This document shows positions 1-28,787 of a stretch of DNA of 64,000 nucleotides, piece by piece. How positions within the stretch are numbered: the first letter of the stretch is position 1; the number at the start of each line of letters is the position of its first letter. The stretch lies in contig OZ316899.1 of the NCBI GenBank assembly GCA_973895155.1, forward strand, positions 15,155,974 to 15,219,973. The letters are read 5' to 3'. The DNA is from Marsupella aquatica. Its lineage: Eukaryota; Plantae; Marchantiophyta. The notes below the pieces were generated by a model that saw nothing but the letters and a program-made list of their open reading frames with translations, had not been told where the DNA came from and did no database searches. The position numbers and the translations under genes were made by a program.

Positions 1-229
1 AGAAGATGACATTCGATTCCTTGACATTTTTGAATTTGATGCCCCGGAAATTCTGGAAATAACCACCGAAATTGCAAATCCGGAAATATCATCAAATCCG
101 GATCAGGCACACTTCATCCGAAAAGATCCGGGTTTACACTCCGATCCGGAAAAAGATTCTAGATCCGGCTTACAACCTGCATGACGCGAGGACCCTTCCT
201 ACCTAAGCACTGGAGTCAAATCTAGGATC

Positions 230-3141
230 TTGGATGGGGAGGGAGTCAAAATTGACCAAGAAGGTGTCAGCGCGGATTTCTTACCAGAAGAAGCAAAAGG
301 ATTGACCATTGAGCCGATGGGTTTTACTGAAGGGATAGTAGATCCACGAGCTTGTCAAAAGGTGGAGATTGAACCTGGAAATTTTTTGAATATTAGCAAT
401 CATATTCAGGGGGACCTGCAAACTAAGTATGTGGAATTGTTGAAACAATATAGGGATGTTTTTGCCTGGAGCCATACCGATATCAAAGGCATACCCTCTT
501 ACCTCGGACAACATTGGATAGACTTGGTTGACTGAGCAATTCCAATAAGGAAAGGCAATATCGTCTTAATCCAAAATACTCCATAATGGTGAAGGATGAG
601 ATTGATAAGCTAACTCAAGCCGGATTCATTTTTCCAGTCCTAAGCAGTGAGTGGGTTTCTCCCATAGTTATTGTGCCCAAGAAACCAGGTCCGGATGGAA
701 AAGTTAAAATATGGGTTTGTCAAGATTTCCGGAAGTTGAATGCAGCCACCAGGAAGGACCATTACCCCTTACCTTTCATTGACATTGTTTTAGATACGGT
801 TGCAGGACATGATCTTTTCAGTTTCCTCGATGGTTACTCTGGGTATAACCAAATTTCAGTCAGGGAGGAGGACCGCGACAAGACCACGTTCACCATGGAC
901 TGGGGCATATATGCTTTTTCAGTAATGCCATTTGGACTCTACAACGCCCCATGAACTTTTTAGAGGATCATGAGGATTATTTTTCAAGAATATCTTCATC
1001 GATTTTTGGAAATTTTTATTGACGACTTCTGTGTTTTTAGTACAGAAGAGGAGCATCTGGAAAAGCTAACGTACGTTAACTTTCCAGAAATGCCGAGAAG
1101 CTCGCCTTTGTTTACATCCAGAAAAATGTTTCATGGGGATGCAAAAAGGAGTGTTGTTGGGACATGTGATCTCTCAAAAGGGGATCGAAGTGGATGCTGA
1201 AAAAGTGAAGATTATTCAAAATCTTCAACCCCCTGCTAATCTAAGGGAGTTGAGAGCATTTTTAGGTCATGTGGGATACTATCAAAGATTTATTCGTAAA
1301 TATGCTGAGATTGCAATGCCTCTGACTCAGTTGTTGAAGAAGGATGTTGAATATACCTGGACTAACACTCGGCAAATAGCTTTCCGGAATTTGAAAGATA
1401 AGTTGGTGTCTGCCCCTGTGATGATACCTGATTGAGATAAACCTTTCCATGTGTACATTGACGCATCCGCATTTTGTGTTGGGGCAGTCCTTAGTCAGAA
1501 GGATGAAGCTGGTAAGGACCATCCTATCTTCTATGCTAGTAGACAAATGAACCTTGCTGAGAAGAACTATACTGTCACGGAAAGGGAAGCCTTGGTGGTG
1601 GTGTTTGCGTGTAAGAAGTTCAGACATTACTTGTTGGGCTATCCTACGGTATTTCATACTGATCATTCTTTGCTAAAATATTTAGTCAATCAAACTGATC
1701 TTTCCGGAAGAATTGCTAGATGGGTTCTTTTACTACAAGAATTTGACTTTACTGTGGAAGTTCGACCCGGAAAACATCATGAGAATGCTGATTTCCTCTC
1801 AAGGATAGACGGTGAGGCGAACGAATCTCCATTGAATGATAGATTTCCGGATGAAGACATTTTTTGTGTTCATGAGGAGGATTCCTAGTATGTCGATATC
1901 ATCAAACTTCTGACTTTGGGTGTTTTACCAGAAAATCTGAACAAGGAGCAACAAGCAATTTTCATCCATAAGGTTGGACCTTATACTTTACGCGGAGGTG
2001 TGTTGTACAAGCAGACTCCAGATCAAGAGTTAAAGAGATGTCTTGAGAAAAGGAGATTAAGACTGTAATTCAGGCCATGCATACAGAAGAGGTCGGTGGA
2101 CATTATGCGTTAATGAACACTGTGAAGAAAATCCGGAATGCTGGATATTGGTGGCCGACCATGTATCGGGATACTCAGTCTTACATTCAAGCGTGTGATC
2201 CATGTTAGAGAATGGGTAAACCTACTTCCACTTCTCATTGGCCTTTAACTCCTATTATGCCGTTAGCCCCTTTTGAGAAATGGGGTATAGATTTTGTGGG
2301 ACCCATTCAACCTCCCTCAGCCAGAACCAGAAATCAATATATCATTCTTGCCACAGATTATGCAACCAAGTGGGTGGAAGCTCGAGCAACTAGGAAAAAT
2401 GATGCTCAAACAGTAGCTAAATTCATTTTTGAAAGTATCTTGGTTAGATTTTGTTGCCCTTTGGAGTTGGTGAGTGATAGAGGTCTTCATTTTCTCAATA
2501 GTACTATCCAAAGTCTCACAGATACATATCTGATCCACCATAGAAAAACCACCCCTTACAATCCTAAAGCTAATGGACTCACTGAAAAAGCTAATGGGTT
2601 GATGGAACATATCTTACTCAAGACGGTGGCCGGACACAAGTCAGATTGGGATGTAAAATTACATTCTGCTTTATGGGCATATCGGACAGCTGAGAAAATT
2701 ACAACTAAGCAAACTCCCTTTTACTTGGTTTATGGACTCCATATTATTGTCCCTGTGGAATTTGAAGTACCCACTTACCGGATTTCTGACACCACCCGGT
2801 TGGATGAGGAGGCAAGTCAGACTCTCAGGTTACAAAATTTGGAGAAATTAGAAGAAGATCGCCATTATGCCTTGATTGAGACCGAGAAACAACAATTGGG
2901 ACGTGCAAAGCGGTATGATTCTAAGCTTAACGAAGTGAAGATTGTACCAGGTGATTTGGTTCTGCTTTTTGATAATCATTACATGTTATTTTTGGGGAAG
3001 CTTCATACCAGATGGCTTGGTCCTTACAAGGTAAGGGAGATATTTTCTAATGGTTCATTACAGTTAGAGGATTTACAAGGCAAAGTTTTATTAACTCGAG
3101 TTAATGGATCTCGGGTTAAGAAATATCACTCCACCTCTTGA
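230..3141 (+). pseudogene. pol: Ty3/gypsy (non-chromovirus, Athila/Tat-like) pol: RT-RNaseH-integrase, disrupted by stops and frameshifts
   Basis: RT motifs WVSPIVIVPKK, DFRKLNAAT, LDGYSGYNQI, MPFGL and FIDDF; RNase H YIDASAFCVGAVL and NYTVTEREAL; integrase GHYA/YWWPTM zinc region, PFEKWGIDFVGP, VSDRG, YNPKANGLTE and C-terminal WLGPY..VNGSRVKKY. No chromodomain. Confidence 0.95.
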
Positions 3142-3167
3142 CGGTTTGCAAGGGCGCTGCACCGGTT

Positions 3168-3177
3168 GGGGAGGGAG
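3168..3177 (+). promoter_or_regulatory. Polypurine tract of gypsy element 1
   Basis: GGGGAGGGAG lies 27 bp after the pol stop. It is followed by TTA and TATGATA (probable decayed TG start) and an A/T-rich run like the starts of the two solo LTRs. Confidence 0.65.
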
Positions 3178-3180
3178 TTA

Positions 3181-4750
3181 TATGATACCATGGTTATAAA
3201 TAAGGAAATTAAAAAGTACAAAAATTTAAAAATTTTCAACTTTTAGTGGTTAACGGCGTATACTTTGACCGGAAAAGACCATAACAAACTACTTTGCAGT
3301 ATCAAATCCGGAAATATCCGGATAGCACATTTTTTGTGGAACTCTTAAGTAACGACACCGTTGAGCCATGCGAGTAGGCATGGGAGAATGAATATTAAAA
3401 CCATAAGTCTGACGTCTGACCGAAGACCGGAGGTTGGCAACCGAGTTCTTAAGACCGTGCCAAACCAAGCATTCCTCACACCACCGAACTGCTGCAGAAA
3501 TCTTTCGCGAGGAATCATAGGAGAGCTTAGAGCTGGACGAGGCTGCCGTTTCGAGGCAATAGTTGAAAGGAAGTTGGTTACGGGGGAACTGGGTGATCGT
3601 TTGATTGAGAGGGGAAGTTTGCGACTTGATGGAGATTTCTGGATTTGGGAATTCCGGATTTTGGAAGGATTTTAATTTGGTTCTTTCTCTCCATCTTCTC
3701 ATTATGGTGAAGAGAAAGGATCTGGATTTTGCCCCGGACAAATCCGGAATTCGGACGCTACCAAAGCGAACGACCAAGGAGCGGACAGTGATTGTGAATG
3801 AAAAGCCACTCCGACCGGAGATTCCCACGGATTTGGCGAGGAAGGACCGCTTGCAAAAGAACCTTGAGACCATGGGTTGTGCAAAGTTGATGGAGTTGCC
3901 ATGGGGCTACTAGAGTGCAGTATTCGTGAAGGAGGTCCGGAATCGTACGACCCTTGCTTCGGAATTTCTGGATTCTATTCGAGCCAAACCGGAAAAGTGG
4001 ACTGCGGCAGTAATCTCTTCACTCTTGGATGTGCCTTTGAAAGGAGAAGGCTTCTTGACCTCCAAGAATTCCTTTGCAGATAACTATTTTGATGGTGAAG
4101 TGGATCCGAAAGACGGTTGGAAGGTGTCCCAGTGCTGTAATGAGGAGTTTTACAACGTTCTGTCCTTCCGGCTTCCACTTCTTTCCCCTGCCAAGCCTCA
4201 ACGAGTTACAATCCGGATTGGAAATACTATTGCTGCTTCTTACATAGGGGAGAAGAAGATTTCCTGGGCCAAAGTTTTGGAGGAAGCTATAGCCAACCAG
4301 GTCCGGAATCTTCATTTGAAGACTCCCACATCCCTTTCTTGCTATCTAGCCAATATTTACGCGATGGACCGGATTCTTACAGATGAAGAAGCGGAGGAGT
4401 ATGAGAATCAAGCCATGTTAGCCCAACTTGGAGATCCGGATCGACAACCATCTGAAGGGACTGAGTGCGACCTCCCAAGACGCAGAAGAAATTTGTGCAG
4501 AGTCCGGAACCGGATCCTGTTGAAGTTCCGGAAGCTGTCTGGAGACCGGAAAGTAGAGGAAGTCTTCCGGGTGTGACCCCCAATTCAAAGTGGACGGCAT
4601 CAGCAGAGTTGGAGCATGTCTGGATTTTCTTGGAGAGTGCGGCCGGAAAGACAAAACAACTTGAGGACCTTGTTGGGACGGTTGCTGAGATGCTCAACTG
4701 CAGCCCGGTTGTCATCGTTTCCACTCTGGACATGGTCCTTACCAGCTTAG
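3181..4750 (+). mobile_element. Probable 3' LTR of gypsy element 1, truncated, containing an ORF
   Basis: Starts right after the PPT and has the same layout as the TG...CA elements at 6150-10659 and 18894-22946 (A/T-rich start, CG-motif cluster, homologous ORF). The right end is lost in a repeat/deletion scar. Confidence 0.6.
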
Positions 4751-4758
4751 GAGTTTAG
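3704..4758 (+). pseudogene. LTR-borne accessory ORF of unknown function, N-terminal part
   Basis: MVKRKDL..LMELPW..IRAKPEKWT..LLDVPLKG..PKDGW..LSPAKP..IGNTIAAS..ISWA..YLANIY. One premature stop at 3911-3913 and a frameshift near 4470. Motifs align with the ORFs at 7619-10228 and 19327-21755. Confidence 0.8.
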
Positions 4759-4950
4759 GACATGGTCCTTACCAACCCGGTTGTCATCATTTCCACTCTG
4801 GACATGGTCCTTACCAGCTTAGGAGTTTAGGACATGGTCCTTACCAGCCCGGTTGTCATTGTTTCCACTCTGGACATGGTCCTTACCAGCTTAGGAGTTT
4901 AGGACATGGTCCTTACCAGCCCGGTTGTCATCGTTTCCACTTTGGACATG
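4701..4950. repeat. 72-bp tandem repeat, about 3.5 copies
   Basis: Units start at 4701, 4773, 4845 and 4917. Each contains the sub-repeat GGACATGGTCCTTACCA twice. Confidence 0.95.
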
Positions 4951-4973
4951 TCCTTAGGAGAAGGATGAAGCTG

Positions 4974-5547
4974 GTGGAGGTTGAGTTTCAAGGGTGTTTG
5001 GCCCCTAGACCATCAGTGGGGCGAGAACCAAGAGTTGGTTGCTAGAGTCGGGGCCAGTTTGGTCCTGGCGTGTTGGGACAAGCTTTAGGACAAGCTATGC
5101 TATTTGGGCCATAAGCATATCCTGGGGTCAGGGCGGTCAGTTGGTGATGGATAGGTACAAGGGGGAACCCAAGCCGCACCCAAGGAAGGAGTTGTTCTTG
5201 ATGAACAGTGGACTGGGTTGTGGTTCCGGCTTATGGCATCGGGAGGACCTATCACTAACCTATTTATCAACCTCTATTGAGCTTGAGTTAGGATGCTAGA
5301 CTTGGTGAGTTCTAGATCTTGAAGGGTTACTTACCCAAGGTGCTTGGTTGCTTGTGCAGACAGTGAGGACCGTTGAGTAGCAATCCTGTTGGAGAGCAAG
5401 TGCGGCTTTGTATGGGAGGGGCCACGGGCGGTGCAAGGGGCACTAGGTTGCTTGCTCAAAGTATTCTATGGAGACATTTGGGCACCAGGGGCACTTAGGC
5501 ATGAGTGTTGGGATTGGTGAGGGTGCTGGGTGGCAAGGTCCACCACT
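4974..5547 (+). mobile_element. 3' part of a chromovirus-family LTR, ending ...CCACCACT
   Basis: Colinear with the 3' third of the complete LTR at 43980-45473. Ends at ACT and abuts pol sequence of another family member. Confidence 0.9.
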
Positions 5548-6149
5548 TGGTCCCCAGAACATGACAAACTTCAAAATTGAAAATCAGCCAAGAACATCTG
5601 CTAGCGCATTTCCTTGGGGTTCAGCCTTGGCTTAGAACTGAAGTACCCAGCCGACAAGCTATCTGTGTGTATTACCACTTTGGGACCGTTCTTAAGGTAA
5701 ATCTCCCACTTCTTCAATGCGTAGATCACTGCATACATTTCCCTTTTTGGTGTGATCCAATGATTTTCCAACTTACATGACTCAAAGGCCACAGGACGCC
5801 CATCTTGGCAAAGACAGGCGCCAATGGAATAATCACTTGCGTTTGTCCAAACTCAAACGGCTTTCCCATCTCAAGTAACTTTAGAATTGGCGGAGATTTC
5901 ATTAGCCACTTGAGTTCTAGGAATGCTAACTCGCAATCTTGTGTCCACACAAACACTTTGTTTTTCATTATTAGCGCGTTTAGGGGCCTTCCGATCCTCG
6001 CATAGTCTTTTATGTATCATTCATAGAACCCCATAAATCCTAAGAAGGCTCTAACTTGCCTTACATTGAATGGGCGCTCTCATTCTTTGATCTCCTTTAG
6101 CTTGTCTTGACTAGGCGTAATCTCCTCGAGGGTAAAGGTATGGCCAAGG

Positions 6150-9100
6150 TGCAGTATCACACTAGGGACATAAATAAATATTTAAGATCCAAAACTCGGT
6201 ATTCGTTCCCATGGAAGAACATGTAAGGAATGATTTTCTATGATTTAGCACTTATGAATGACTTAAGTAACAAAAACACAAAGGTGAGCCTTTTACTATG
6301 GTTGCTCAGCAAGGCATAGTTTTGAATGTTTGCTTAACATTGTAAATAAAATTAACAAATGGAAACAATTAACAAAATACAATGAAAATCTTGAGGTATG
6401 GTAAGGGAGTTAGGAAACAACCAAGGTTACTCCTCAACATAACTTCATTTGATATGATTTAGGTGGTATATCCGTAAGAACATTCTGGAAAGGATTACGG
6501 TACTAGGATGATTACTAAAATGTCGTCAACATGTGTCAACTTTTCCTTCCAAGGTACTGAGTGGAGACTAGTAATCAATCACTTCTGTATCCAATCGGTA
6601 CTTTGTGTCACGAATAAGAGACACCATCATGATCAAATTTGAAGCCATAAGTAATTGGTAAGTAACAATCTTTGCATCCCGTGCACAAGCAATGTCACAT
6701 CAAAAACTATGCATCAAGAACTAAGGAATATGTGAAACATCACCAATAAGGAATCTATTTCCACATACTCAAAAGATTTAACAATCACAATAATTTTACT
6801 TCAAGGGTCCAAACTTCTCATTCATTTAGACTTGCAGGGGGAAGAATTCTTTTGTATTAAGTACTCATATGCAATGGAGTGCTTGCTACAAATGGAGGTA
6901 ACAAAGTTGCAATCTTGCAACTGAGCGCTCATGGAATTTCTTCACACAAAAAGTAACATAAAGTCTACTACATATAGGCTAGCAGGAACTAAAGGGAAAA
7001 GAGATAATGCAAGGACATGCCCTTTCATATTTTAAGGGTCATAAACTAAAGTAAAAAGTATGAAAATATGTTACAAGAGTACACAAGGTTCACTAGAATG
7101 CTGCTGGAATGAAAAACTAATCAAAAGTTATCCCTAGTGTAAATTGGAGTGAAAGTGTTTTTGCACTTTTGCGATAAAACTAACAAATAGTGAGTTTGTT
7201 GGAATTTTAATTTCTAACATAAAGTTCATAATAGTGTGAAACTTTTCAAGGCGAAAGATTTACATAAATGCTACATGCTGGAAAACTTTCAGACTTTTCT
7301 GAGATGTCTAAGTGCCTTAATAAAATCGGTGAAAAGTGCTGTTGGATATAAAATACATTTTTCTGGAAAATTTTCTAAGTGTCGGAAGCGCCGTTGCACC
7401 TTTGCGCTTTGGCATAGTAGCGCCGTTGCGCCTTTGAGCACTCATGCCACTGTAAAACTAAAAATTCTATAACTTCTAAACTACATGTAGGTTTTGGCCG
7501 ATACTTTTCAGGGGTGGATCTGTTACCTCGTGGAAAAGTATGAGACTTTTCTATCTATGATAACTATTTAACAAAAATGGTGGAGATTGACTAATCCTGA
7601 CTCGAAGGATGAAATAGGTCAATCCTCTTGAAGTAGTGCTGACTGGTCCAGTTGTTGAAAACTCCTGAATGTCTCAGTTTGAATCACCTCTCGAAGGAAA
7701 TCCATAACCTGCGTATCATGTCGAGCAAATGGAAGAGACCTGATTTGTCGTTCAACATTTAGAATGGGGAGTAGTCTCATGTGAAACATAGTGTTCACCT
7801 TGCTAGCTTGCATATAGATGCCGACCAGATCATAACTACAACAAGTGGTGTGGTAGTTGCATGGAAACTTGTTGATGAAGGTGTCAGAGTCCTTGGCAAG
7901 TGATAGAAGTGGAGTGACACTAGGTAACAGTTCCCGCCACTTCAGGGTGTAATCAGCCAACCGCTGGGAAGTGATGTTATTCTAGATTCTCTGACTCTCA
8001 GCAACTGGTGAGATAAATTGTTGAACAACAAAACGTTCCTCTGGTAGGACACCATGGTCGACCTGATATCGTTTGTTGGTTTGTCTCAAAAAGTTGATGA
8101 TGAATTCCAAGACATAGGCAGGTAAATTCCCAAAGTATGTCAGGGCCAGATCTCTATTCTCCAGTACAATGTGTCCAACCAGGATCATGACACCAAGAAT
8201 AGGGCAAAAATATTTAGCCTTTGTCCAGATCTCATCCATCTCTGCTATCTCTAGGCGGGTGACATCCTTCAGATGAAGCTTCAGGATATAGAGACATTCA
8301 ACTCTCTTCTTATGATAGTACTGCCAAAACTCTAAAATGGGAGGAGTTCTAAGGTCTGAAACTCTGACAAACTCAGCAAATTGTGTAATATTCTCCTGAG
8401 GGGTTTTAGGGTCAATATGGAGTGTAGGAATGAAATGGACTTGGCAGGATTTATCTTGACCTGGTGGAAGGATGTCAGGATAAGAAATGGCAAGATGTTC
8501 ACCTATAGGTGTGATCTCAGGTTCTGGAAAACTAGGATAGAGCTGGTCTGGTTGATTTGAAGGACTGTAAGGAGAGGGGGGTGAATGACTAGAAGGAGGG
8601 GTAGAATAGTAAATGGGAGAGCCAGATGTTGAGGTATGATAACGGACAGCATAATAGACTTGCTTGGTGCTGCATCCAAAAATCTGTGTAAGCCTGTGGA
8701 CTAAATCCTCACAATATTCTCGATGATGGTCTCGGGCAAGTAAGCTGATGTCTTATGCAGAAGATCATCTAAGACATCAATTAAGTGTCTCTCATCACAC
8801 TCCAGCATGTCATTCATTTTATTGACAAGAGTAGAATAGTGTTCAGTAGAGTGACCTGGGGAGGCAGATAGTGTCTGTTGAAGCTCTAACCTGGGTGATG
8901 CATCATTTTCCTCCATTGGTTCAGCTTCAGTAATATTTGTAACCCTAATATTGGAGGTGGGTTGAAATAGCTCCATCACCTCAGGATAGAACTGAGTAGG
9001 ACCTTGGGTTGGAGAGTATGGAGAATCGGGACTACTAGGTTCAGGCAGAGTTACAGAGGCTGCTCTTAACCTCTCAACTGAGTCAACTATCTCCTCAGGT

Positions 9101-10659
9101 TCACAGATCAATAAGTTGCTTAACTTATCAATAATTTGCTGATTAGATTCTACTCTCAGTTCATCAGCCGTTGGTTTGCTGAACATGAAGGGTCTCTTGC
9201 GGGATCTCATAGAAGGGGTCAAGCTGTCTACAAATAAATTCTGAGTTGGGACTGTAGGTGAGCAAAGAGTAATAGGGACAGAGATGTTAACTACAGGTAC
9301 AGGCAGTGGGGGAACCTCTGGTTTGGATGTATACTCATCGAGATTGGAATTGAGGGGGGTGTAAAGTCTTCGATCTTGATTGAGATCTTCAAAAGGGGAT
9401 AGAGGATTATCAGGAATTGGTGAAGAGGTACTTCTGGGTTCCACAAGTGGTTCTCCATGGGTAAGAGGGGTAACCTTTGAACAGATAGGTGGGGGAACCT
9501 CTGGTTGAACTTCATCAGCATCTTCTCCTTCAGTATCCTTGTTTCCTGATTCACTAAAATCAAATTCATCAAGCAGTCTGATCCGCTCCTCTTGTTTGCC
9601 TAGAAGTAAGCAATTCCCATGAAAGTACAACTGGCAAAGATAAGCAGGGAGAGTAGTGAACTCATCTATTTTCACCTTCTTTACTTGAGATAAAATAACC
9701 TGTCTTAGCAACAAGGCCCAATTTATCTGAGCAACTCCCTTCCAACTTGCCACAATAGTATTGTCAAGTGACACAGGTATCATATGTGGCCAAATGGGAT
9801 GGAGAATTGGAATCAAAAACTCTAAAATGATTTTAAGAGTATAATTGGTGCACTGGTCCATTTTCCATCCATGGCAAACGTTTCGAGTTCCAGAAAAATA
9901 AGGCCTCGCAGTCTCTCCTTGTCGTGAGTGTAGGCATCACCTTCGGCGGGACAGTCGAAAGCATCAGCAACAAATTGCAGAGTCCAGAATTCTGGATTTG
10001 CCCAAGCAGTTCCCACCATACCAACTTCGATTCGTGCCCCATCACTGAAATCCTTCAGAAAACTTAATGAAGTTACGGACCAAGGCAGAGTGAGCAATTT
10101 ACTCAGGTGCATGACTGCCAGTGCTTCCTTCAGAACGTGCAAGTTTCTTTTCATCGTAGGGTATGTCACAGGGACGGCCTTAGGTAAAGGAACTCCTCTT
10201 GCAGTCATCTCTCCCCTTTGTCTGCCATAGTAACAAGGAACAAGGCGTTGTCACCAACTATTGATCCAAAGAGATCAATGCCAAGTGATCCGCCGTTGCG
10301 CTTTCGCTCTGTTGCGCCCTTACGCCTTTGCTCCGAAATGCTGTTGCGCGGTTGCGCTATTGCGCTTTTCCCCCAAAACGCCGTTGCGCTTTTACGCCAA
10401 AACACTCTTTGTAACGCACGGTCAAACTTGGCAGCACCAATCTTCCTTCCGTGCTTCGAGAACATCGATAGTAGTTTCTTCTGGCTCGTCTCACCCCTAC
10501 TTAATTACTCAGGGTATTATCCATTAATCTGCCTAACTTAAGTCTTAACCTTACTTATATCTATAAGTAGATTAATTGGCTATGTTTAATCTATTTCTAA
10601 GTACAATTTTTTTTAATTTTTTCATTATTTCTAAGTTTCTAATTTAGACAGCTATTACA
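6150..10659 (-). mobile_element. Solo-LTR-like element A (4510 bp, TG...CA) carrying a long ORF
   Basis: Perfect 5-bp TSD CAAGG (6145-6149, 10660-10664). Minus-strand termini TGTAAT...ACTGCA. No gag/pol and no internal LTR pair. The 3' end shares blocks with element B (GGGAAC.AATACCGAGTTT, GTTGACGAC, AGGAGTAACCTTGG). Confidence 0.85.
7619..10228 (-). pseudogene. LTR-borne accessory ORF (~870 codons), decayed
   Basis: Joins ORF pieces 9822-10208, 8701-9861, 7982-8239 and 7619-7960. Conserved N-domain (LLTLPW, ANPEFWT, FDCPAEG, LEFLIPILHP, NTIVAS, INWALL, YLCQLY), a Pro/Ser/acidic middle and a C-domain shared with 21033-21755. Confidence 0.85.
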
Positions 10660-11415
10660 CAAGGAACTGAATCTCGTTCATCGCAAACTTGCACTTGCTA
10701 GGTTTAGCAAAGAGACGAGCCTTACAAAGGCAAGAGAACACTTCCCTGAGCAACTGCTCATGTTCCTCCAATGTTTTTGAGTAGATTAGGATGTCGTCAA
10801 TAAAGACGACCACTCCTTGGTCCAACAAGTCATAAAGATGGTATTCATCATCTTCATGAATGTTGAGGTTGCATTACACAACCCTAACGGCATAACCAAA
10901 AATTCATAGAATCCAAACCTTGTGCGCATCAAGGTCTTATACTTGTCTCCCTTAGCCATGAAAATCTAGTAATACCCAGACCGCAAGTCCACCTTTGAAA
11001 ACTTCTTAGCCCTGGAGAGGCAATTGAAGAGGTCATCCATATGAGGTAATAGGTACTTGTTCTTTACCATTTGCTTATTGAGGGCCCAATAATCTGCACA
11101 GAATCTCAAAGTACCACCTTTTTTGGACACAAATAGCACGGGTGCCCCATAAGGACTCTTACTAAGATGAATGAACCCTTGGTTGATCAACTCTTCCAAG
11201 GCATTCTTCAACATCATTGTTTATTCAGGTTTAGACGATAAGGAGCTTTAGCCTAAGGAGCTGAACCTGGCTCCAACTCAACTTAGTGATCCACTTCTCT
11301 CCACGGGAGTAAACCTTTAGGTAGCTTCTATGAGAGCACATCATTAAATTCCTCTAAAATTTTAGGAATTCGACCACAGTTGGGCCCAACCTTAGCTGAC
11401 TTAACCTTTGGTTGC

Positions 11416-12644: not shown

Positions 12645-15600
12645 TGGGCCCATCGTTTCATGCAATAGGGCCCCGCATATCTAGGAGCGAGCTTCCTACT
12701 TTAGTTCCCATGGTATTGTTTAGGTCTCAATTGCAACCAAATGCTTTCCCCAATTTCAAAGTTTACCCAACATTGATGTTTATCCCCTTGCTCCTTGTAC
12801 CAACTTTGGGCAAGGGTCATACCCTTGGTAGCCGCTTCCACAACTAGGCGTCACTCTTGAATTAAATTGTCCGCAGAAGGAACCTTGCTTTCTGTCCACC
12901 AAGCTTCCGGATTTATGAACCAAGAGGGCGCCCTTAGCGTCCTCCCCATGGCCAACACAAACGGTGCAAACCCCGTTGCCAAATGCTTGGTCGAGTTATA
13001 CCTAGACTCGGCCATTGTTAAGTGCTTTGCCCAATCCTTTTGATTGGCCGTCACAAAGTGACGCAAGTAATCCTCCACAATACCATTCACCCGTTCCATT
13101 TGGCCATCTGTCTCATGATGATACAATGATCCCCTTGTCAGGTCTGTGCCGGATAATCGGAACAACACCTTTCATAAGTGGCCCGTGAACTTGGTGTCAC
13201 GGTGTGACATGATATGCAACGACAATCCCCATTGTCAAAAGACATTGTCAAACACTAGACCAACAACCTCTTGGGCCAAAATCATTTTTGTAGTCGCCAA
13301 GAAATACGTCATCTTGGAAAAATGATCCACAATTGTTAAGATGGAGTTACTGCCATGGGACTCAGGTAATCTCACAATGAAGTCCATGGAGATCAACTCC
13401 CATGGTGCCGCAACTACTGGTAAGGGTTGTAGATGTTCTCCTTTTGCCCTATAGACCGTTTGGTTCTTTTGGCACAAGTAACAACTTTGCACGTGGCAAA
13501 GAACCGATTGCTTCATGTCTAGCCCATACACATCTTGTGACATGTTGCGGTACGTAGCAGCTTGTCTGCCATGCCCTCCCCAAGGCAAGTTGTGGTACTT
13601 TGCAGAACCTCCATTCTTAGAGACTTTGGGATGTACACATGCCTCTGCTTGTATTGTCATAACTGGATATTATGCATGGTATCCAACCCAAATGAAACGT
13701 GCCTTACCTTGCCTTGGCTAACCCCATTGCTTTGCCATTCCTTGGCTAACCACTTGTCATCCCCGTACGCCTTGGCCAGAACCTTTGGGCACTTGGATTT
13801 GAGCATTGTGATCCCATTGACACGATGATGGTCCCTATTCAATAACGCGTCAGCTGCTATGTTTGTCTTCCCAGGAATGTGACGGACTTCAAAATCAAAA
13901 TCCGCCAAGAACATTTGTCAGCGCATTTCCTTGGGGTTTAGCCTTGGCTTAGAATTGATGTACCTTGTCGGCAAGCTATCTGTGTGTATTACCACTTTGG
14001 GACCGTTCTTAAGGTAAATTTCCCATTTCTTCAATGCATAGATCATTGCATACATTTCCCTTTCCGATGTGATCCAATGATTTTCAAACTTACATGATTC
14101 AAAGGCCACAGGACACCCATCTTGGTGAAGACAAGCGCCAATGGTGTAATCACTTGCGTCTGTCCAAATCTTGAAGGGCTTCCCCATCTCAGGTAACTTT
14201 AGAACCGGCGGCATTATCATTAGCCGCTTGAGTTCCAAGAATGATAACTCACAATCTTGTGTCCACACAAACACTTTGTTTTTCATTGTTAGTGCATTTA
14301 GGGGCCTCGCAATCCTCGCATAGTCTTTCATGTATCTGCAATAGAACCTCGTAAGTCCTAAGAAGGCTCTAACCTGCCTTACATTGGATGGGTGTTCTCA
14401 TTCCTTGATCTCCTTGAGCTTGTCCTGACTAGGCATATTCCCCTCCGGGGTAAAGGTATGGCCAAGGAACTGAATCTTGTTCATCGCAAACTTGCATTTG
14501 CTAAGTTTAGCAAAGAGACGAGCCTTACAAAAGTGAGAGAATACTTCCTTGAGCAACTGCCTATGTTCCTCCAATGTTTTCCAGTACATTAGGATGTTGC
14601 CAATAAAGACTACCACTCCTTGGTCCAACAAGTCATGAAAGATGGTATTCATCATTTTTATGAACATTGCGGTTGCATTACACAAGCCAAACAACATACC
14701 CAAAAAAATTGTAGGATCCAAACCTTGTGGGCATTGTGGTCTTATACTCGTCTCCCTTAGCCATGCGGATCTGGTACTACCCAGACCACAAGTCCACCTT
14801 TGAAAACTTCTTAGCCCCGGAGAGACAATCAAAGAGGTCATCCATATGAGGTAACGGGTACTTGTTCTTTACCATTTGCTTATAGTCACGAAACTTGACT
14901 ACCTTAACACTTAGCTCCAATGTTGCTGACTCCAACATCGAGCTCCCTTATGGTCTAGGCCCGGTTAGGCCATCCGGGGAGGACTTAGCATGGGGAGACT
15001 TGTGGACAATGAGACGTGGCACTAGTGAAGGCAAGGAGCCAAGCTGGTGACACACACTAAGGACTTAGGCAAGCTCAGAGCTGGTCAGGTCAAGGGGAAA
15101 GGGGCCGGACTCAAGGTTGACCATCCGGGCCCCCTGACGGACTTTGGGTTCTGAGGGCTTGAGTGTGAGCTCCTCTTGGGCCCAAGGCCAATGGAGTTGA
15201 CGCCATAGGCAACGGACGCTTGGGGCGTGAGTTATGGCCCGATCCGAGTTTGGCTGATCGGGTACCCCAAGGGCGATGAGACCTGAGGGTCTAGCCATGA
15301 GCACCGGGTTGGCCCGATCACAACGGGCTAAGGCACTCCACTTGCGGACGCCTAACGAGAAAGTTATGGGCGTTGCCAGTTAATGGCACGCCCAGTATGC
15401 GTGATCGGATCTGGGTTGGAGGCCAAAAGTTTAGGGACCAAAGTTGGTCCGGGGGTAGCAGGTCTCCAGAAGCATATATGAGGGGGTGGTGTCTCCCTGG
15501 GGGCCAAGGGCGAGCCAAAGTCGTGAGCCGCGGCGGTCGCGACACTAAGGGAAAGCGTCAAACGGAAACGGCGATATCTTTCCAACGGGAAGTCCGTTGG

Positions 15601-16397
15601 AGGACTTCTTAGGTGCGTTAGAAAGCTCTCAAGGACGGCTATGTCCTTTTGAGCTCATGTGGGTCTGGGGGTGCCATGGGTTCTTGAGGTTTGCGGGTGT
15701 TAGCTCGCCCGCTTGGGTAGGCAATCGCACGTCTTGGGGTGGACGTGCAAGAGTTGCTACAACCATTAGTGTGCAAGTTTGCCAACGACACAAAAGGGAT
15801 AGTGTCAAGAGTGGTACATAGACTTTGAGTAGAGGTCATAGGCAAAAAGCAAAATTTTGTTAGTCAGGAGATGTTCTACGTTCTAGACGGTCTAGCCGTA
15901 GACTTCATTTTGTCGGTGGGTTATCTCAGAAAGCACAGTGTTACCTTGAAACTGGGGATGAGGTGCTCCATTTTCCCAATAAGGGCAGTGAGCTCATTGT
16001 TGTACACGAGATTACCAAAAATAAAGAAAGATTTCTCAAAGTAAGTAAAGTGTCATGGTTGTCCCCGTGTGTATCGGCAAAGCAATGGTGGAAAAACTTC
16101 AAGGGTGGACATGAATGTTTCTTCTCTCATGTCCACCCAGTTAAGGAGGCTGCTTCGCAGCCAAAGGTTAAGTCATCTAAGGTTGGGCCTGACTGCGGTC
16201 AAATTCCCAAAATTTTAGAGGAATTCAACCACGTGCTCTCGCAGACGCTACCTAAAGGTTTACCCTCGCGGAGAGAAGTGGATCACCAAGTTAAGTTGGA
16301 GCCAGCTTTGGCTCCTCATGCTAAAGCTCCTAACCATCTGTACCTAAATGAACAAATGATGTTGAAAAATGCCTTGGAAGAGTTGATCAACCAAGAG

Positions 16398-17320
16398 TTC
16401 CGACAATGGGGATTGCCATTGCATATTCTGTCCAACCGCGATACCAAGTTCATGAGCCATTTCTGGAAGGCATTGTTTTGGTTATCCAAAATGGACCTTA
16501 CTAGGTGATCAGCGTATCCTCATGAGACGGATGGCCAAATGGAATGGGTGAATGGTATTGTGGAGGACTACTTGCGTCAATTTGTGATGGCCAATCAAAA
16601 GGATTGGGCAAAGCACTTAACTTTTCCCAAGTTTAGGTATAACTCGACCAAGCATTTGGCAAAGGGGTTTGCGCCATTTGTGTTGGCCACAAGGAGGACG
16701 CCAAGGGCGCCTTCTTGGTTCATAAATTTGGAAGCTTGGCGGACGGATGGCAAGGTTCCTTTTGCGGACAATTTTATTCGAGAGCGGCGCCTAGTTATGG
16801 AAGTGGCTACCAAGGGTATGACCCTTGCCCAAAGTTGGTACAAGGAGCAAGGGGATAAACATCGACGCCAGGTAAGCTTTGAAATTGGGGAGAGTGTCTG
16901 GTTGCAATTCAGACCTGAGAAATACCACAAGAACATAAGTAGGAAGCTAGCTCCTAGATATGCGGAGCCCTATCGCATCATACGATGGGCCCACAAGGAT
17001 AATCCGGTTTTGGTGGTGTTGGAGACACCCAAGGAAATGGGCGTGGGCAAAAGCTACTATGTTAGCCGGCTCAAGAAATTTGTCAAAGATGATGATCCCA
17101 ACCGGGATCAGGTCTTGCGTCCAAACGCCATGTTGGTGGAGGACGCGGAGGAGTTTTAGGTGGAGGCAATTCTGGACCACCGTTACAAATGCAAGTTGGA
17201 AAGGAAAATCTTAGAGTATTTGGTGAAGTGGTGGCTATGATCAGGCCAAGAGTACTTGGGAACCGGAAGAAAATTTGGGTAATGCCTCAGAGATCCTTGG
17301 AAGCTATTGTAAGCAAAGCG
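16398..17320 (+). pseudogene. Integrase C-terminal half with GPY/F region and chromodomain
   Basis: GLPLHILSNRD, ETDGQMEWVN and KLAPRYAEPY, followed by EEF*VEAILDHR..EYLVKW..STWEPEENLGNA with frameshifts (aromatic-cage type chromodomain). Confidence 0.88.
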
Positions 17321-17515
17321 GCCTACTGCCATTGTGAACTGGTACAGGCAACTGTAGCTACTTTTGTGACTTGTATCCTGGTTTCACTCCTCTCGACCTC
17401 TTAAGGACACAGTCAGATTGCGTTGGTGCTAGAGGGTGTTGGGCGCCCAATTTGCTTTTTGCGAGTGGAAGTTGATGGTGCCCGCCTTACATCTGTGGGC
17501 GGGCTGGTTCAAACC

Positions 17516-17522
17516 AAAGGGG
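17516..17522 (+). promoter_or_regulatory. Polypurine tract of copy C
   Basis: AAAGGGG immediately followed by AGT, the start of the 3' LTR. Confidence 0.6.
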
Positions 17523-18893
17523 AGTACCCCAAGGATAGGCCATACGGGGAGGACTTAGCATGGGGAGACTTGTGGGCAATGAGACGTGGCACTAGCAAAG
17601 GCAAGGAGCCAAGCTGGTGCCACACACTAAGGACTTAGGCAAGCTGAGAGCTGGTCGGGTCAAGGGGAAAGGGGCCGGACTCAAGATTGACCATCCAGGT
17701 CCCCGGACAGACTTTGAGTTCTGAGGGCTTGAGTGTGAGCTCCTCTTGGGCCCAAGGCCAATGGAGTTGACGCCATGGGCAACAGACGCTTAGGGTGTGA
17801 GTTATGGCCCGATCCGGGTCGGCCGATCGGGGACCCCAAACAGCGATGAGACCTGAGGGCCTAGGCATGAGCACTGGGTTGGCCCGATCACAATGGGCTA
17901 AGGCACTCCGCTTGCGGACGCCTAACGAGAAAGTTATGGGCGTTGCCAGTTGGTGGCGCGCCCACTATGCGCGATAGGATCCGGGTTGGAGGCCAAAAGT
18001 TTAGGGACCAAAATTGGTCCGAGGGTCGCAGGTCTCCAAAAGCATATATGAGGGGAGTGGTGTCTCCTTGGGGGCCAAGGGTGAGCCGAAGTCTTGAGCC
18101 GCGGCGGTTGCGACACGAAGGGAAAGCGCCAAACGGAAACAACGATATCTTTCCAACGGGAAGTTTGTTGGAAGACTTCTTGGGTGCGTTGGAAAGCTCT
18201 TAAGGAGGGCTACGTACTCCTGAGCTCATCTGGGTCTAGGGGAGCCATGGGTTCTTGAGGTTTGCGGGTGTTAGCTTGCCCGCTTGCCAAATCCTGCCAA
18301 ACAATAGCCAAGCCGTGTTCAGTCTCCCAAGGGATCTTGTGTTGGGGAGGCAAGGCCAAGTAGGCATGGAGGTTGAGTTTCAAGGGTGTTTGGCCCCTAG
18401 ACCATTAGTGGGGCAAGAACCAGGAGTAGGTTGCTAGAGCCGGTCATTCTGGTCCCGACGTGTTGGGACAAGCTTTAGGACAAGCTACGCTATTTGGGCC
18501 ATGAGCATGTCCTGGGGTCAGGGCGGTCAGTTGGTGATGGATAGGTACAAGGGGGAACCTGGGCCGCACCCAAGGAAGGAGTTGTTATGGACAAACAGTG
18601 GGCGTGGGTTCTGGTTCCGGCTTATGGCATCGGGAGGACTTATCGCTGACCTATTTACCAATGTCTGTTGAGCTTGAGTTAGGATGATAGACTTGGCAAA
18701 TTCTAGATCCTGAAGGGTTACTTACCAAGGCGTTTGGCTGCTTGTGCAGACAGTGAGGACCGTTGAGTAGCGGTCGTGTTGGAGAGCAAGTGCGGCTTTG
18801 TATGGGAGGGGCCGCTGGCGGTGCAAGGGGCACTAGGTTGCTTGCTCGAGGTATTTCGTGGAGGCGTTTGGGCACCAGGGGCACTAAAGCATG

Positions 18894-21800
18894 TGTAAGT
18901 AGTCAGTAATTCCAAAGGCATGAAGAAACCAATTTTTTAATTTTTTTTTGAATTATTTAAACTATATTTGCTGATAACTATAGAGTAAACTGCACTCCAA
19001 TTAAACTCTGCCAAAGTTACGAGTCCTTGAGTATAAGTTACGGGTAAACCATGTTACGAGTTGACAAGTATATGGGTATACGCGTTCAAGAGTATATGGG
19101 TATATGCGTTTAAGAGTTTACAGGTATAAGGGTTTACTCCTTACAACTTACGAGTTTGCGGTGAGTCCTGTGATCATGACATGCTACGGCTAACTCCAAC
19201 GGGACTTCGCAACGGAACGAGGAGCGCACCTTGAAAGGGAAGGGATGCAGGACATGGGCACTCATTCCTGACTTCTCTTCCGCCTTACCTCTCACCTCTC
19301 TTGACCCAAACAATTCTCCGCGCAACATAGTGAGCAGAATTCAAGACTTGGGTGCTGACAAGCAGTACCGTGTTGAAGCTCTAGCAATTCCAAGGGGTAT
19401 AGTAGCACAAATTCCACAGGCGCCCGACGGTTGTGCTAACTTACAGGCATCTTTACAATAGTTAGGACTAAAGCGTCTACTGGAGATCCCCCGGAATGTG
19501 GAACTCTACTCTTATTTACAAGATTTTGTGAAGGGGTCCATTATTTCCATTGAATTTTGACAAATCATTCGAGCTCGTTCGAGTTTGTGGATAGTTGAGC
19601 AGATTGCTTACGCCTTTGGCTGCTCATCAAAAGGAGAGGCATTGTATTCTAAGAAAAAAGATATATCCACACCTTACTTCTCAAGAATTTAAAATCTCAA
19701 GAATGGCTGGAATTTGACTCAGTGTACTTATCTTGAATTGAGAGTTCTCTTAGAATTCTTAGTGCCGATTCTTCACCCAAAGAAGCCAACCGTCTGTTTT
19801 GTAGCCTTGGCAAACACTATTGTAGCTGCTCACAGTGGAGCTATCCAAGTAAATTGGGCTTTGTTGATCTTTAATATTATGAAAGATCAAGTGAAGAGTT
19901 TGAAGGTAGGAAGACCCACTTGTTTGCAGAATTATCTGTCTCAACTCTACTATGCCTATGACTACTTACATCTTGAAGAGAGAACGGAGAAAGGGTTGCT
20001 CCTAATCAAACTAGGCATTGAAGAAGAGATTTTAATAGAAGAACCAAGACAGGCCATTCCACCGGATTCCAATGATCAGGATGTTGATGTGGACATTGAT
20101 GTTAATATGGAGGATGTCTCAATAGGTGGTTCTGAACCTTCACCTGTACACAACTTGGAGGACATCTGTCATCCAATGTATGACTTGCACTCTCCCAGGG
20201 AAACCAGTGGTGTAGATCAACTGGAAGCTGAAGGAGATGAGTTTTTACCTGAGCAACAAGAAGATGTTGCTGAACCGACTATTGCTGCCATTCATGGGGC
20301 CACAACGCCCACTTTTTCAGAAGCTGAGTCTAATCAGCAACTCATTGATAAGTTAACCTCTCTCTTTGGTTGTAGTGATGATGAACTCTATAATGTGGTT
20401 AGTGACTTGAGAATGGAGTCAGTTAGTCTGCAGTCACCTTTTTCAGATCAGTTGACTCCTATTAGAGCAACTTCACCCATAGGAAGTTCAGAACGAGAAG
20501 AATTTGTTGTTCTCACTCCATTACACAATAGAATCCCCCTATAGAACAGTGTGAACCTGTCTCAGAGATAGGAAACATAAGTTGTGTTGCAGTTATAAAT
20601 GACCTATTGGAAATGCTTCAGTGTGAACCCAAGGAGATAGTCTCTGTTGTCAGTGACTTAATTCAGAAGTACCTAGTACCCAAAGGCCCTTACAATCAGG
20701 GTGCATGCACTTATAGTCCAGATTCTAGTTATGAGCCAACAAATGGACCTATTTATACTCAACCACAGTATGAACATCCTTATGTTAGACAGGATCTCTC
20801 TGAAGACTCCGATCCATCCTTAGACGGTGAAATTTAAAGATCTTATGATAATTCTCTTGAGTCGTCACCAAGGCAAGGATTTGAAGATGTTGACGCTGCA
20901 TTACGGTCGAATCCAAATCTAGTGGCATTGGTTACTTCTTCTACTCAAACTCCTAGAAATGCTACTATTGAGAGTAGGTACCCTAGACACCCTGAGTCAT
21001 AAGTACACAGGTATGCCACCACTTGCAAAATAATGCAAGCCAACAGACCATCAGTTGGAGAATTCTCGAGATACTACTATCTGAAGAAGAGTGAGGCTAG
21101 TTACATCTTTGACCTCAGGTGTCATGGTACTTCTAGACTGGAGATGGCACAATTTGATGAATTCTGGACTAACTCTATGTACTTCCGGCCCATTCTTGCT
21201 GTGATGCTGCTACAAGGTGATGTGGAGGTGGAGGATCCTGATTTGGTCCTGGCGTATTTTGGAAACTTTGCAACTTATATTATGGATTTTGTAATCTCTT
21301 TTCTTATGCAAAGTAAGAAGTCCACTTCTCTTCAGAATGATTACATTCCTCAAAAGCCCAAGGTTGTACTCGTTTCGACTAGTACCTTAGCTGACAAACA
21401 AAGGATATGGAATAATGTTACCTCTCAGACTCTTGCTGAATTCAACCGATACTTCAGAGATGTCATTTGGAGATTTTGTCCTTTCTATTCTAGGACAATG
21501 AGACTAAAGATTTCCTATTCCATTACCCTCAAGTATATGCTGCTACCTGCAATCACTATGATGTGATTGGGATCTACCGAGAAGCACTTCATATAGACTC
21601 GTGTTACTTACGGAGAAGTTCCTGAGAGACAATTATGATGCCTACCCTATTCATGAGGATCATCACGACAAAGTGAGTTTATGGAAGTTACTCAATCTCA
21701 GACTGTTATCCTCGTGGAGCTTCTCAAACCAGATGATATCCGACAACAAGCTTGAGGCAAAATCTAAGTGTTTTAGTTAAGTTTTAAGAGTAGTGCATCT

Positions 21801-22946
21801 TTTCAGATTTTTCTAAATGTGTTCTAAAGTTTTAAAAGCTATGAGACTTTGTCAGGAGGTAGTCTGTACCTAGGAAAACTTGCTGGAAAAATTTCAAAGT
21901 TTTTTTAGCTAGGAGTATAAAGTTAAAAATAGTTGAATTTGCTAAGTTCTTAAGTATACCGCAATACAAGTTTACGAATTTCAAGTTAGTGACTTAGGAC
22001 TATAAGGCTTTACAGTTTTACGGGTTTACGAGTTCATACTTAGCCACTTTTCCGGCTTTTCACTTACATAATGGTCATTTTAACTATTTGAGAGGTATGA
22101 AGAGGCATGTCTCTTCAACCTTATGGCCTTTCATTCTATAGATTTTTACTATAAGATAGCTCTACCACTAGTGTAGTTTATGGTAAAGTTATGCATTTTC
22201 ACCTCTTCCTTGTGTTAAACCAATTGATCATGAATCTATGAGTTTGAGATCAGGTTTAACAAATAGGAGAGACTTTCCTCTTTCTTGTGTTTGTACCTCT
22301 ATTTATAAACATAGGAAGTAAAATCCATTTGTGTAAAATCTTTGGAGTTGTGATGATAGATTCCTTTTCGGTGATTCATTGCAATTTCTTAAGTTCTTAG
22401 AGTTAACTCATTGAGTTTAAGTCTTATTAAAATTGATGGATTTTTTTTCATGTTGCTTAGTACCATCTAAATGTTGAAGTAGCTACCTTTTAGATCGTGT
22501 CTGAGTATCACTTAGAAAGAAAAGACAAGACGTGTTGACGACACTTTAAAAGAGTACTCTAGTAGCATTTTAGACCTGAAAAGCAATGTGGGTTTGAATC
22601 TCATAAAGTCATTTCATTTTGACTAATGTTTAAGGAGTAACCTTGGTACATACCAGACTTCCTTGGCATACTTTAAGATATTTTCTGTGTGTTTTATTAA
22701 TTATTTTCTTTTATTAATTTATGTTTACACAATGTTGAGTTATCATTGAAAACTACTCACCGCTGTGGAGCGATCTTCAAAATACCTCAGTAAAGTAATC
22801 AAATTTGATTACTATGTGTGGGAAACATCTTAATTTCTTTATTATTGTTTAAAACTATCAAACCAACCTCATGTTGTTCTTTACGGGAACAAATACCGAG
22901 TTTGAAGACCTTTAAGTGTGTTTTTGGTTCTTCATGACAAACTACA
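18894..22946 (+). mobile_element. Solo-LTR-like element B (4053 bp, TG...CA) carrying a long ORF
   Basis: TSD GCATG/GCGTG with one transition (18889-18893, 22947-22951). Termini TGTAAG...ACTACA. The host LTR sequence resumes exactly after it. No gag/pol. Confidence 0.85.
19327..21755 (+). pseudogene. LTR-borne accessory ORF (~810 codons), decayed
   Basis: Pieces 19231-19461, 19714-20544, 20607-20837 and 21033-21566 plus tail. LEFLVPILHP, LANTIVAA, VNWALL, YLSQLY. The C-domain EFSRYYYLKK..RLEMAQFDEFWT..YFRPILAVM..LAYFGN matches element A. The start position is approximate. Confidence 0.85.
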
Positions 22947-25900: not shown

Positions 25901-25990
25901 TTGTCCTAAAGCTTGTCCCAACACGTTGGGACCAGAATTGTCAACTCTAGCAACCAACTCCTGGTTTTTGCCCCACTGATGGTCTAGGGG

Positions 25991-26004
25991 CACTAGTAGA
26001 AACC
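25991..26004 (+). mobile_element. CACTA-type terminus (CACTAGTAGAAACC) interrupting the copy B LTR
   Basis: LTR homology stops exactly at GGG|CACTAG. The partner end and the rest of the LTR are not in the window. Confidence 0.7.
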
Positions 26005-28623: not shown

Positions 28624-28787
28624 TGTTGTGTGACAATGGAGAGACTTGCAACTCGCTATTGTGTTCCATTATGGGTGTGACTTATATAGTCACCATAGGG
28701 TTACATGTTGGGGTTGGTGTTAACCCATGTTACCCCTTCAGGATAGGGTTAGGGGTTAACCATGGTCTAGAGTAAATGGTTACAACA
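28624..28787 (-). repeat. 3' LTR of the copia element
   Basis: TGTTGTGTGAC...TTACAACA, preceded on the minus strand by PPT AAGGGGAAG (28788-28796). Confidence 0.97.

What the first reader, a model, noticed from the sequence alone, without database searches (positions are those of the whole stretch)
1..22040. Each ORF-carrying LTR family has its own CG-containing motif clustered around the ORF: candidate sequence-specific anti-silencing system
Seen: element 1 is saturated with TCCGGA (1-175 and 3300-4570). Solo A has TTGCGC(T/C)TT clusters on both sides of its ORF (10290-10400, 7388-7437). Solo B has TTACG(A/G)GT clusters on both sides (19015-19156, 21965-22035), including variants that look deaminated. 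Established knowledge: VANDAL transposons encode VANC proteins that bind family-specific short motifs and cause demethylation. Inference: the LTR-encoded protein and its cognate motif may be a co-evolving protein-target pair, which would be an equivalent system in an LTR retrotransposon.
Basis: partly seen in the sequence, partly recalled or inferred. Interest (0 to 1): 0.78.

Follow-up and report, generated by a model that had tools for sequence, protein, structure and literature searches.

The report
VANC-like LTR gene with target words
Three plant jumping-gene families each carry a gene inside their end repeat plus many copies of a short CG-containing DNA word; the protein is predicted to fold like the anti-silencing factor VANC21, so it likely binds that word to keep its element active, though one of the words is shared by a whole lineage rather than private to one family.

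Summary
The motifs are real. Solo LTR A carries GCGCAA 6+2 times and solo LTR B TTACG(A/G)GT 4+2 times, on one strand, on both sides of the LTR-encoded ORF (0 and 1-2 of 200 shuffles). Element 1 has 19 TCCGGA (0.8 expected from composition), but these are spread over the whole element, pol included, and enriched at synonymous sites. Five metagenome loci of the same lineage (four families) are equally TCCGGA-rich (10-22-fold), so this word is clade-wide, not family-private. A and B, which lack it, belong to the other main protein clade. The three ORFs are homologous, belong to a family of 411 clusters with no Pfam match, and the modelled N-domain (pLDDT 94) has VANC21-DNA as its top structural hit (Z 7.8, 200 of 230 residues; next 4.0; not significant by Foldseek). 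Best reading: an LTR-borne, VANC/PMD-fold DNA-binding protein that recognises its element's word and counters silencing. Binding and demethylation are untested, and co-variation rests on one clade switch. This scan has already noted the ORF-in-LTR and the VANC21-like fold on other DNA of this genome.

The parts
1..3141 (+). Element 1: broken Ty3/gypsy pol (PR-RT spacer, RT, RNase H, integrase), with 9 exact TCCGGA
   Evidence: Pfam RVT_1, RT_RNaseH, rve; 54-65% identical to pol of L002/L004
3165..3180 (+). Polypurine tract directly before the 3' LTR of element 1
   Evidence: sequence; same pol-PPT-TG layout in L002 and L004
3181..4690 (+). Element 1 3' LTR, 5' part (inferred start); ends in a 72-bp tandem repeat and an unrelated gypsy LTR
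   Evidence: the LTR's own end is missing, so its extent is inferred from L002/L004 and the solo LTRs
3704..4758 (+). Element 1 LTR-encoded ORF (clade II N-domain plus start of linker), one in-frame stop and a frame change, truncated
6150..10659 (-). Solo LTR A, 4510 bp, TG..CA, 5-bp TSD CAAGG, inserted in pol of another gypsy family
   Evidence: empty-site joints and multi-copy cover in Logan contigs
7619..10250 (-). Solo A ORF in four pieces: N-domain (clade I), acidic/proline linker with repeated helical modules, C-domain
10290..10400 (-). Solo A upstream cluster, 6 x GCGCAA (unit about AAAGCGCAACGGCG), about 60-170 nt before the ORF start
7388..7437 (-). Solo A downstream cluster, 2 x GCGCAA plus one GTGCAAC variant
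18894..22946 (+). Solo LTR B, 4053 bp, TG..CA, TSD GCATG/GCGTG, inserted in an LTR of another gypsy family
19015..19156 (+). Solo B upstream cluster: 4 exact TTACG(A/G)GT plus decayed units in a 24-bp tandem array
19340..21750 (+). Solo B ORF in several pieces (ends approximate); relative P0006 is an unbroken 808-aa natural protein
21960..22035 (+). Solo B downstream cluster, 2 exact TTACG(A/G)GT plus variants, about 270 nt before a TATA-like box at 22304
   Evidence: promoter role inferred

Best explanation
These Ty3/gypsy elements carry, inside the LTR, a gene whose N-terminal domain is predicted to have the VANC21/plant-mobile-domain fold and likely binds the short CG-containing word that is over-represented in its own element, likely to counter host silencing. 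Shown: the ORF lies within TG..CA/TSD-bounded LTRs; the three ORFs are homologous; the words are over-represented; TCCGGA is 10-23 times above composition, on both strands and at synonymous sites of pol, in element 1 and four related families; A and B, in the other main protein clade, lack it and hold oriented arrays of other words before the ORF and before the likely genomic promoter. Predicted: the fold. Inferred: that the protein binds the word; that binding removes or blocks repressive marks (DNA methylation as with VANC, or H3K27me3 as with MAIL1/MAIL2); that the upstream array serves the ORF's own promoter (positive feedback) and the downstream array the genomic-RNA promoter; that solo LTRs could supply the protein in trans. 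Two layouts would then exist: a dispersed palindrome kept across clade II, and fast-changing tandem arrays in clade I.
For: Fold: AF2 model of residues 1-230 of P0006 (66% identical to B over 276 aa), pLDDT 94; VANC21-DNA is rank 1 in Foldseek (E 0.57, TMq 0.48, next TMq 0.12-0.17) and the only chain with Z>=5 of 48,161 (Z 7.8, rmsd 4.2, 200 aligned; next Z 4.0 over 62); this was the hypothesis before the search. Selection on the word: synonymous-codon shuffles give CCGGA 27 vs 6.2 in element 1 and 2.4-3.1-fold in 7 of 7 coding pieces of L001-L005 (p 0.001), while CG overall is at or below expectation; controls in the same window (copia, the other gypsy pol, CACTA, ORFs A and B) show none. CCGG o/e 2.4-3.8 in element 1 and 5 of 5 loci, 0.0-0.8 elsewhere. 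Strand-symmetric, so a DNA-level signal. Dipeptides that TCCGGA encodes are in excess beyond residue 240 in 24 proteins of the large clade II group (214 vs 154, z 5.7), not in clade I. Non-motif CpG o/e is 0.6-0.9 over most of the first 750 nt of A and 0.7 over nt 251-750 of B, against mostly 0.1-0.4 in the ORF bodies. Literature: VANC targets are tandem motifs (PMC5735166), PMD-C proteins act through DNA motifs and resemble VANC (bioRxiv 2024.09.27.615353).
Against: The structural match is below significance in Foldseek and Z 7.8 is in the range the tool calls middling; VANC21 is the only member of the PMD-like group that these searches returned, so the hit marks a superfamily, not a function; 0 of 90 members match PMD (PF10536) or DUF1985, 2 of 90 touch Transposase_32 weakly. 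TCCGGA is not family-specific and sits in coding DNA, unlike VANC targets, which are non-coding and differ between close families. Co-variation is one clade switch plus A versus B, on a quick tree; no clade I locus from another genome was obtained. The dipeptide proxy is flat (z -0.9, 9 proteins) for element 1's own nearer relatives. Known VANC motifs hold no CG. All three window ORFs are broken, the copies show many C>T/G>A changes, and no expression or methylation data were found.
Confidence: 0.5

Rival explanations
1. The words are binding sites for host transcription factors (ordinary, fast-evolving U3 enhancers amplified by local duplication); the LTR ORF does something unrelated.
For: U3 motifs differ between LTR subfamilies (PMC10794571, passage); A and B arrays are oriented tandem units before likely promoters; CpG retention is common at promoters.
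Against: Does not easily explain a palindrome enriched at synonymous sites along all of pol in several families and presumably several hosts, nor the VANC21-like fold.
Confidence: 0.2
2. The protein binds its word but acts as a plain transactivator of the internal and LTR promoters (like foamy-virus Tas, recalled), without changing chromatin marks.
For: Arrays lie before both likely promoters in A and B and before a TATA box in L004; an acidic/proline-rich linker follows the N-domain.
Against: Sites throughout pol make little sense for promoter activation alone; VANC21's primary effect is removal of silent marks (PMC5735166, passage).
Confidence: 0.15
3. TCCGGA is selected for another step (cDNA/pre-integration complex handling, chromatin targeting, or binding of a host protective protein), with the A and B arrays being a separate phenomenon.
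For: The word is conserved over deep divergence (pol 55-70% identical), unlike an arms-race target; it is evenly spread, 9-21 CCGG per kb in most parts.
Against: Its loss coincides with the protein's clade I changes and with gain of other arrays; only LTRs of clade I were seen, so their pol is unknown.
Confidence: 0.1
4. Neutral: CpG retention, codon or amino-acid bias, or chance tandem duplication.
For: The 1-175 and 4430-4570 clusters encode Pro-Glu/Asp-rich linkers; B's motif is weak after multiple-test correction.
Against: TCCGGA exceeds composition-only expectation 10-23-fold, which retention cannot give; shuffles keep protein and codon usage; other elements in the same window show no excess.
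Confidence: 0.05

Closest known systems
VANC21/VANC6 anti-silencing proteins of VANDAL Mutator-like DNA transposons (PMC5735166, PMC10398659, passages read; PDB 9LNK/9LNJ)
   Same: TE-encoded accessory protein; predicted shared fold over the whole N-domain; short motifs in tandem arrays in non-coding DNA (A, B); variable low-complexity regions outside the conserved domain
   Different: Encoded inside the LTR of a retrotransposon, so kept in solo LTRs; about 10% identity; motifs contain CG (YAGTATTAY and AGTTGT(A/C)C do not); the clade II word is a palindrome dispersed through coding DNA and shared across families; host likely a non-seed plant whereas VANC is reported as dicot-specific (PMC13547354)
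PMD-A domains and other extra ORFs of Ogre/Retand/Athila Ty3/gypsy elements (PF10536, PF04195, PF03078, PF20167; PMC5418596, PMC6317226, PMC7264820, passages read)
   Same: Non-chromovirus-type gypsy element with a sense extra ORF after pol; PMD-like fold; coiled-coil region in clade II
   Different: Those ORFs are described between LTR and gag or between pol and the 3' LTR and in angiosperms; here the ORF lies beyond the PPT, inside the LTR; no Pfam match at threshold; no cognate DNA word reported for them in the passages seen
[quoted passage not shown]
   Same: PMD-type fold linked to promoter motifs, one palindromic and one derived non-palindromic, opposing silencing
   Different: Host genes acting on host promoters against Polycomb; direct DNA binding not yet shown there
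Foamy virus Tas / MMTV sag / HIV nef (recalled, no call)
   Same: Accessory gene at or in U3; Tas acts on an internal and an LTR promoter
   Different: Unrelated proteins; animal retroviruses; no match in the viral structure library

Membership tests
Ty3/gypsy LTR retrotransposon | RT-RNase H-integrase order, PPT before 3' LTR | tested here: met
Ty3/gypsy LTR retrotransposon | LTRs TG..CA with 4-6 bp TSD (solo A, solo B) | tested here: met
   empty-site joints; their link to a gypsy pol is inferred from ORF homology with element 1
VANC anti-silencing system | Encoded by a VANDAL/MuDR DNA transposon | tested here: not met
   encoded in a gypsy LTR
VANC anti-silencing system | DUF1985/PMD-type fold | tested here: inconclusive
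   top hit VANC21, Z 7.8 over 200 residues, Foldseek E 0.57; no sequence-level match
VANC anti-silencing system | Target motif amplified as tandem arrays in non-coding regions | tested here: inconclusive
   met for A and B; not met for element 1 and L001-L005, where the word is dispersed and largely coding
VANC anti-silencing system | Motif differs between related families with the protein | tested here: inconclusive
   A, B and element 1 differ, but five clade II families share TCCGGA
VANC anti-silencing system | Direct motif binding | not testable with these tools
   needs EMSA/DAP-seq/ChIP
VANC anti-silencing system | [quoted passage not shown] | not testable with these tools
   needs methylome data
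Gypsy-encoded PMD-A (PF10536) | Pfam PMD match | tested here: not met
   0 of 90 members at E<=1 among the 25 families shown, 0 of 48 at E<=0.05
Athila-type Transposase_32 ORF (PF20167) | Pfam match above cut-off | tested here: inconclusive
   2 of 90 members, best E 0.005; the one score seen was 15.7 bits against a cut-off of 45
REXdb lineage (Athila, Tat, Phygy, Selgy) | RT/INT phylogeny against reference sets | not tested
   no reference set in the tools; Athila-like RT motif is recalled only

The most novel reading that the evidence does not exclude
A whole lineage of seed-free-plant LTR retrotransposons runs a self-targeting anti-silencing circuit packed into the LTR: a VANC-fold protein plus its own CG-containing sites, with selection strong enough to rewrite synonymous codons of pol and even the protein's linker; solo LTRs remain complete trans-acting units, and this retrotransposon-borne PMD-like system would predate, and might be the source of, angiosperm PMD and VANC proteins.
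Probability: 0.35. Interest if true: 0.88.

Novelty: new variant of a known kind. Interest (0 to 1): 0.7.

Why it matters
Sequence-specific anti-silencing is established only for VANDAL DNA transposons in the papers seen here, and the role of plant retrotransposon extra ORFs is an open question (PMC7264820). This finding names a candidate protein, candidate target words and two protein clades with different words, so the question becomes directly testable with one binding assay. If true, LTR retrotransposons have their own VANC-like defence, solo LTRs are not inert, and new protein-motif pairs become available for epigenome editing and for tracing the origin of PMD/VANC proteins.

Tried and rejected
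No whole genome is held for this window, so no genome-wide k-mer background or family-wide co-variation test. Pfam: no match for 11 ORF pieces. Word-index protein searches gave 0, 3 and 5 hits; none carried a name, nor did 10 clusters looked up. PDB sequence searches gave nothing for the N-domain, only weak or coiled-coil matches. No answer was obtained from the ESM Atlas. Viral contigs: 0 of 12 and 0 of 1 candidates confirmed; genome contigs 0 of 10. BFVD: no match at E<=0.001. C-domain of clade I: low-confidence model (pLDDT 52), best Z 3.8, uninformative. No RNA holder listed. No homodimer prediction was obtained. A recalled idea that liverwort 4mC or 5mC spares CCG sites, which would make CCGG a methylation-evading word, found no support: 0 occurrences of CCG in the preprint's held text, and other elements of the same window are CCGG-poor. 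RNA-level motif rejected by strand symmetry. Literature searches for an LTR retrotransposon VANC-like system, TCCGGA/CCGG enrichment or an ORF within a bryophyte LTR listed nothing that describes this; Tanaka 2026 and Sasaki 2022 are not held and could bear on novelty and on which residues contact DNA. No supplements were read.
Full report
Anatomy. The window is nested transposon DNA with CpG o/e 0.47 and plant-type elements (CACTA, copia, Plavaka); a non-seed land plant is inferred, and unreviewed scan notes say 'likely liverwort', which I did not test. Element 1 (1-4690, +) is a broken Ty3/gypsy pol followed by a polypurine tract and, about 520 nt later, an ORF from 3704; it is cut off by an unrelated gypsy family. 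Solo A (6150-10659, -) and solo B (18894-22946, +) have TG..CA ends and 5-bp target-site duplications, and each holds a 2.4-2.6 kb ORF in pieces. Logan contigs show A as a multi-copy family with empty-site joints at its insertion point. The three ORFs share an N-terminal domain (32-33% identity to element 1's over the aligned core); A and B also share a C-terminal domain (37%).

Observation. Element 1 has 19 TCCGGA, against 1 in the rest of the window. A has 8 GCGCAA in one orientation, 6 before and 2 after the ORF (0 of 200 shuffles); B has 6 TTACG(A/G)GT, 4 before and 2 after (1-2 of 200), though no k-mer of B passes Bonferroni correction on its own. Other copies read CG at two of B's CA variants in all four runs laid, which confirms deamination of motif units.

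The protein. No Pfam family matches the window pieces. A profile of the three N-domain cores found 411 clusters at E<=0.001 among 1.84 billion representatives (best 150 listed), among them P0006, an unbroken 808-aa relative of B (66% over 276 aa). Of 90 aligned members 2 touch Transposase_32 weakly and none shows PMD or DUF1985 among the families listed. An AlphaFold2 model of P0006 residues 1-230 with that 90-row alignment is confident (pLDDT 94, pTM 0.89). Its best match in the PDB is VANC21 bound to target DNA: Foldseek rank 1 but E 0.57, TMq 0.48; VIA-align Z 7.8, rmsd 4.2, 200 aligned, 10% identity, the only chain at Z>=5 of 48,161, next Z 4.0 over 62 residues (Z 7.4). The tool warns that Z under 8 is common, so the weight lies in whole-domain cover, the gap to rank 2 and the fact that this was the prior hypothesis. 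Since VANC21 resembles MAIN/PMD proteins (PMC13547354 section 10; bioRxiv 2024.09.27.615353 passages) and gypsy-encoded PMD-A is known in angiosperms (PMC5418596, PMC6317226 passages), the hit places the domain in a PMD-like group; it does not show function. The C-domain model is poor and uninformative.

Relatives as DNA. One metagenome scan confirmed 5 of 121 candidate stretches; L001 and L002 are 98% identical, so four families. L002 and L004 show the same layout: pol, PPT, TG, ORF 570-770 nt inside. All five are dominated by CCGGA/TCCGGA: TCCGGA is 10-22 times its composition-only expectation (23 in element 1; 0 in A and B; 0.1 in the remaining window). Shuffling synonymous codons while keeping protein and codon usage gives CCGGA excess at p 0.001 or lower in element 1 and in 7 of 7 coding pieces of the loci, pol included, whereas CG overall is at or below expectation and five control sets in the window show no excess. 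The word is strand-symmetric. Retention of unmethylated CpG could bring a word up to its neutral expectation, not 10-20 times above it, so selection for the word is inferred. The peptide pattern used in the scan favours clade II and can itself contribute one site per locus; no clade I locus was recovered.

Co-variation. A quick maximum-likelihood tree of 134 N-domains (26 of 160 rows dropped for short cover, solo B among them, with P0006 standing for it; the careful search did not finish) splits into clade I (28 rows; A and P0006 inside a 13-row group with support 99) and clade II (106 rows; element 1 and L001-L005). All TCCGGA-rich elements are clade II; A and B are clade I and differ from each other. 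As a proxy for families without DNA, dipeptides encoded by TCCGGA are in excess beyond residue 240 in 24 proteins of the large clade II group (z 5.7), but not in clade I (4 and 5 proteins) nor in 9 proteins on element 1's side of clade II (z -0.9). Several basic columns differ between clades. This fits protein-motif pairing but amounts to one clade switch plus one difference, not a statistical test of co-evolution, and it shows that TCCGGA is lineage-wide rather than family-private.

Mechanism. I commit to a self-targeting anti-silencing protein (0.5). The ORF in the 5' LTR or a solo LTR needs its own promoter near the LTR start; the upstream arrays lie there, with raised non-motif CpG nearby, and the downstream arrays lie before the likely genomic promoter (TATA-like box at 22304 in B). 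Binding would keep both open, with positive feedback; in clade II, sites along the whole element would protect the body too. Binding, the mark affected and trans action are all inferred. Rivals: host-factor enhancers (0.2), plain transactivator (0.15), another use of the palindrome (0.1), neutral (0.05).

Comparison and novelty. It works like, but is not a member of, the VANC system: wrong element class, CG-containing words, and in clade II a dispersed coding palindrome instead of family-specific non-coding arrays (PMC5735166, PMC10398659 passages). Seven searches listed no paper describing such a system in LTR retrotransposons; PMC12844716 (passage) calls it an open question and PMC7264820 (passages) calls extra-ORF function unknown; two key VANC papers were not held. 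Unreviewed notes of this scan report the ORF-in-LTR and VANC21-like fold on other DNA of this genome, one with a scattered DNA word, and parallel palindrome-plus-protein pairs in its DNA transposons; I saw them after my own fold search and take them as leads only. Verdict: real feature, new variant of a known kind, interest 0.70.

Noticed in passing
L004:2620-2830: Besides 64 CCGG, this clade II locus has a local array of a second word (ACGGAAC, 7 vs 0.6 expected over the locus; CGGAACGC/ACGCG units) right before a TATA box of the LTR ORF: a possible intermediate between the dispersed palindrome and the A/B-type arrays.
   Followed up: partly
window 41219-42613 (-) and 39096-39810: An unannotated ORF with a faint resemblance to the same N-domain (hhalign E 0.017, probability 2.7%; not found by the HMM), with an array of 14 ACAATGA words about 1.4 kb downstream.
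   Followed up: partly
window 19176-19295: This 120-nt piece just behind B's upstream array has 10- to 100-fold higher summed contig depth than its flanks, so it is shared with a far more abundant repeat.
   Followed up: no
window 6150-7450: The distal 1.3 kb of solo A (likely R/U5 side) has about 3-10 times the contig depth of its ORF part, and 126 nt of it are 75% like B's end: related LTRs may share this end with other or no ORFs.
   Followed up: no
window 4701-4956: 72-bp tandem repeat (3.6 copies) that duplicates the end of a short helical module (L..ML.C.P..IV..) which recurs 1-3 times in the linkers of all three ORFs.
   Followed up: no
window 29150-33796 (-), LTRs 28624-28787 and 34246-34409: Young copia element: unbroken 1548-aa ORF, identical 164-bp LTR matches.
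   Followed up: no
window 28500-28610, 34560-34650, 36320-36640: Repeated TTACTGGTAAC/CAGGAAA-type units next to a Plavaka transposase fragment (35379-35687); likely sub-terminal repeats of a DNA transposon into which the copia inserted.
   Followed up: no
window 51461-54079 (-) and 55087-55593 (-): CACTA Transposase_21 remains and a BRCT-domain ORF.
   Followed up: no
window 4960-6149, 10660-18893, 22947-26000, 43980-45900: A second, GC-rich gypsy family, heavily nested and rearranged, is the insertion target of both solo LTRs; it has no LTR ORF hit and no TCCGGA excess.
   Followed up: partly
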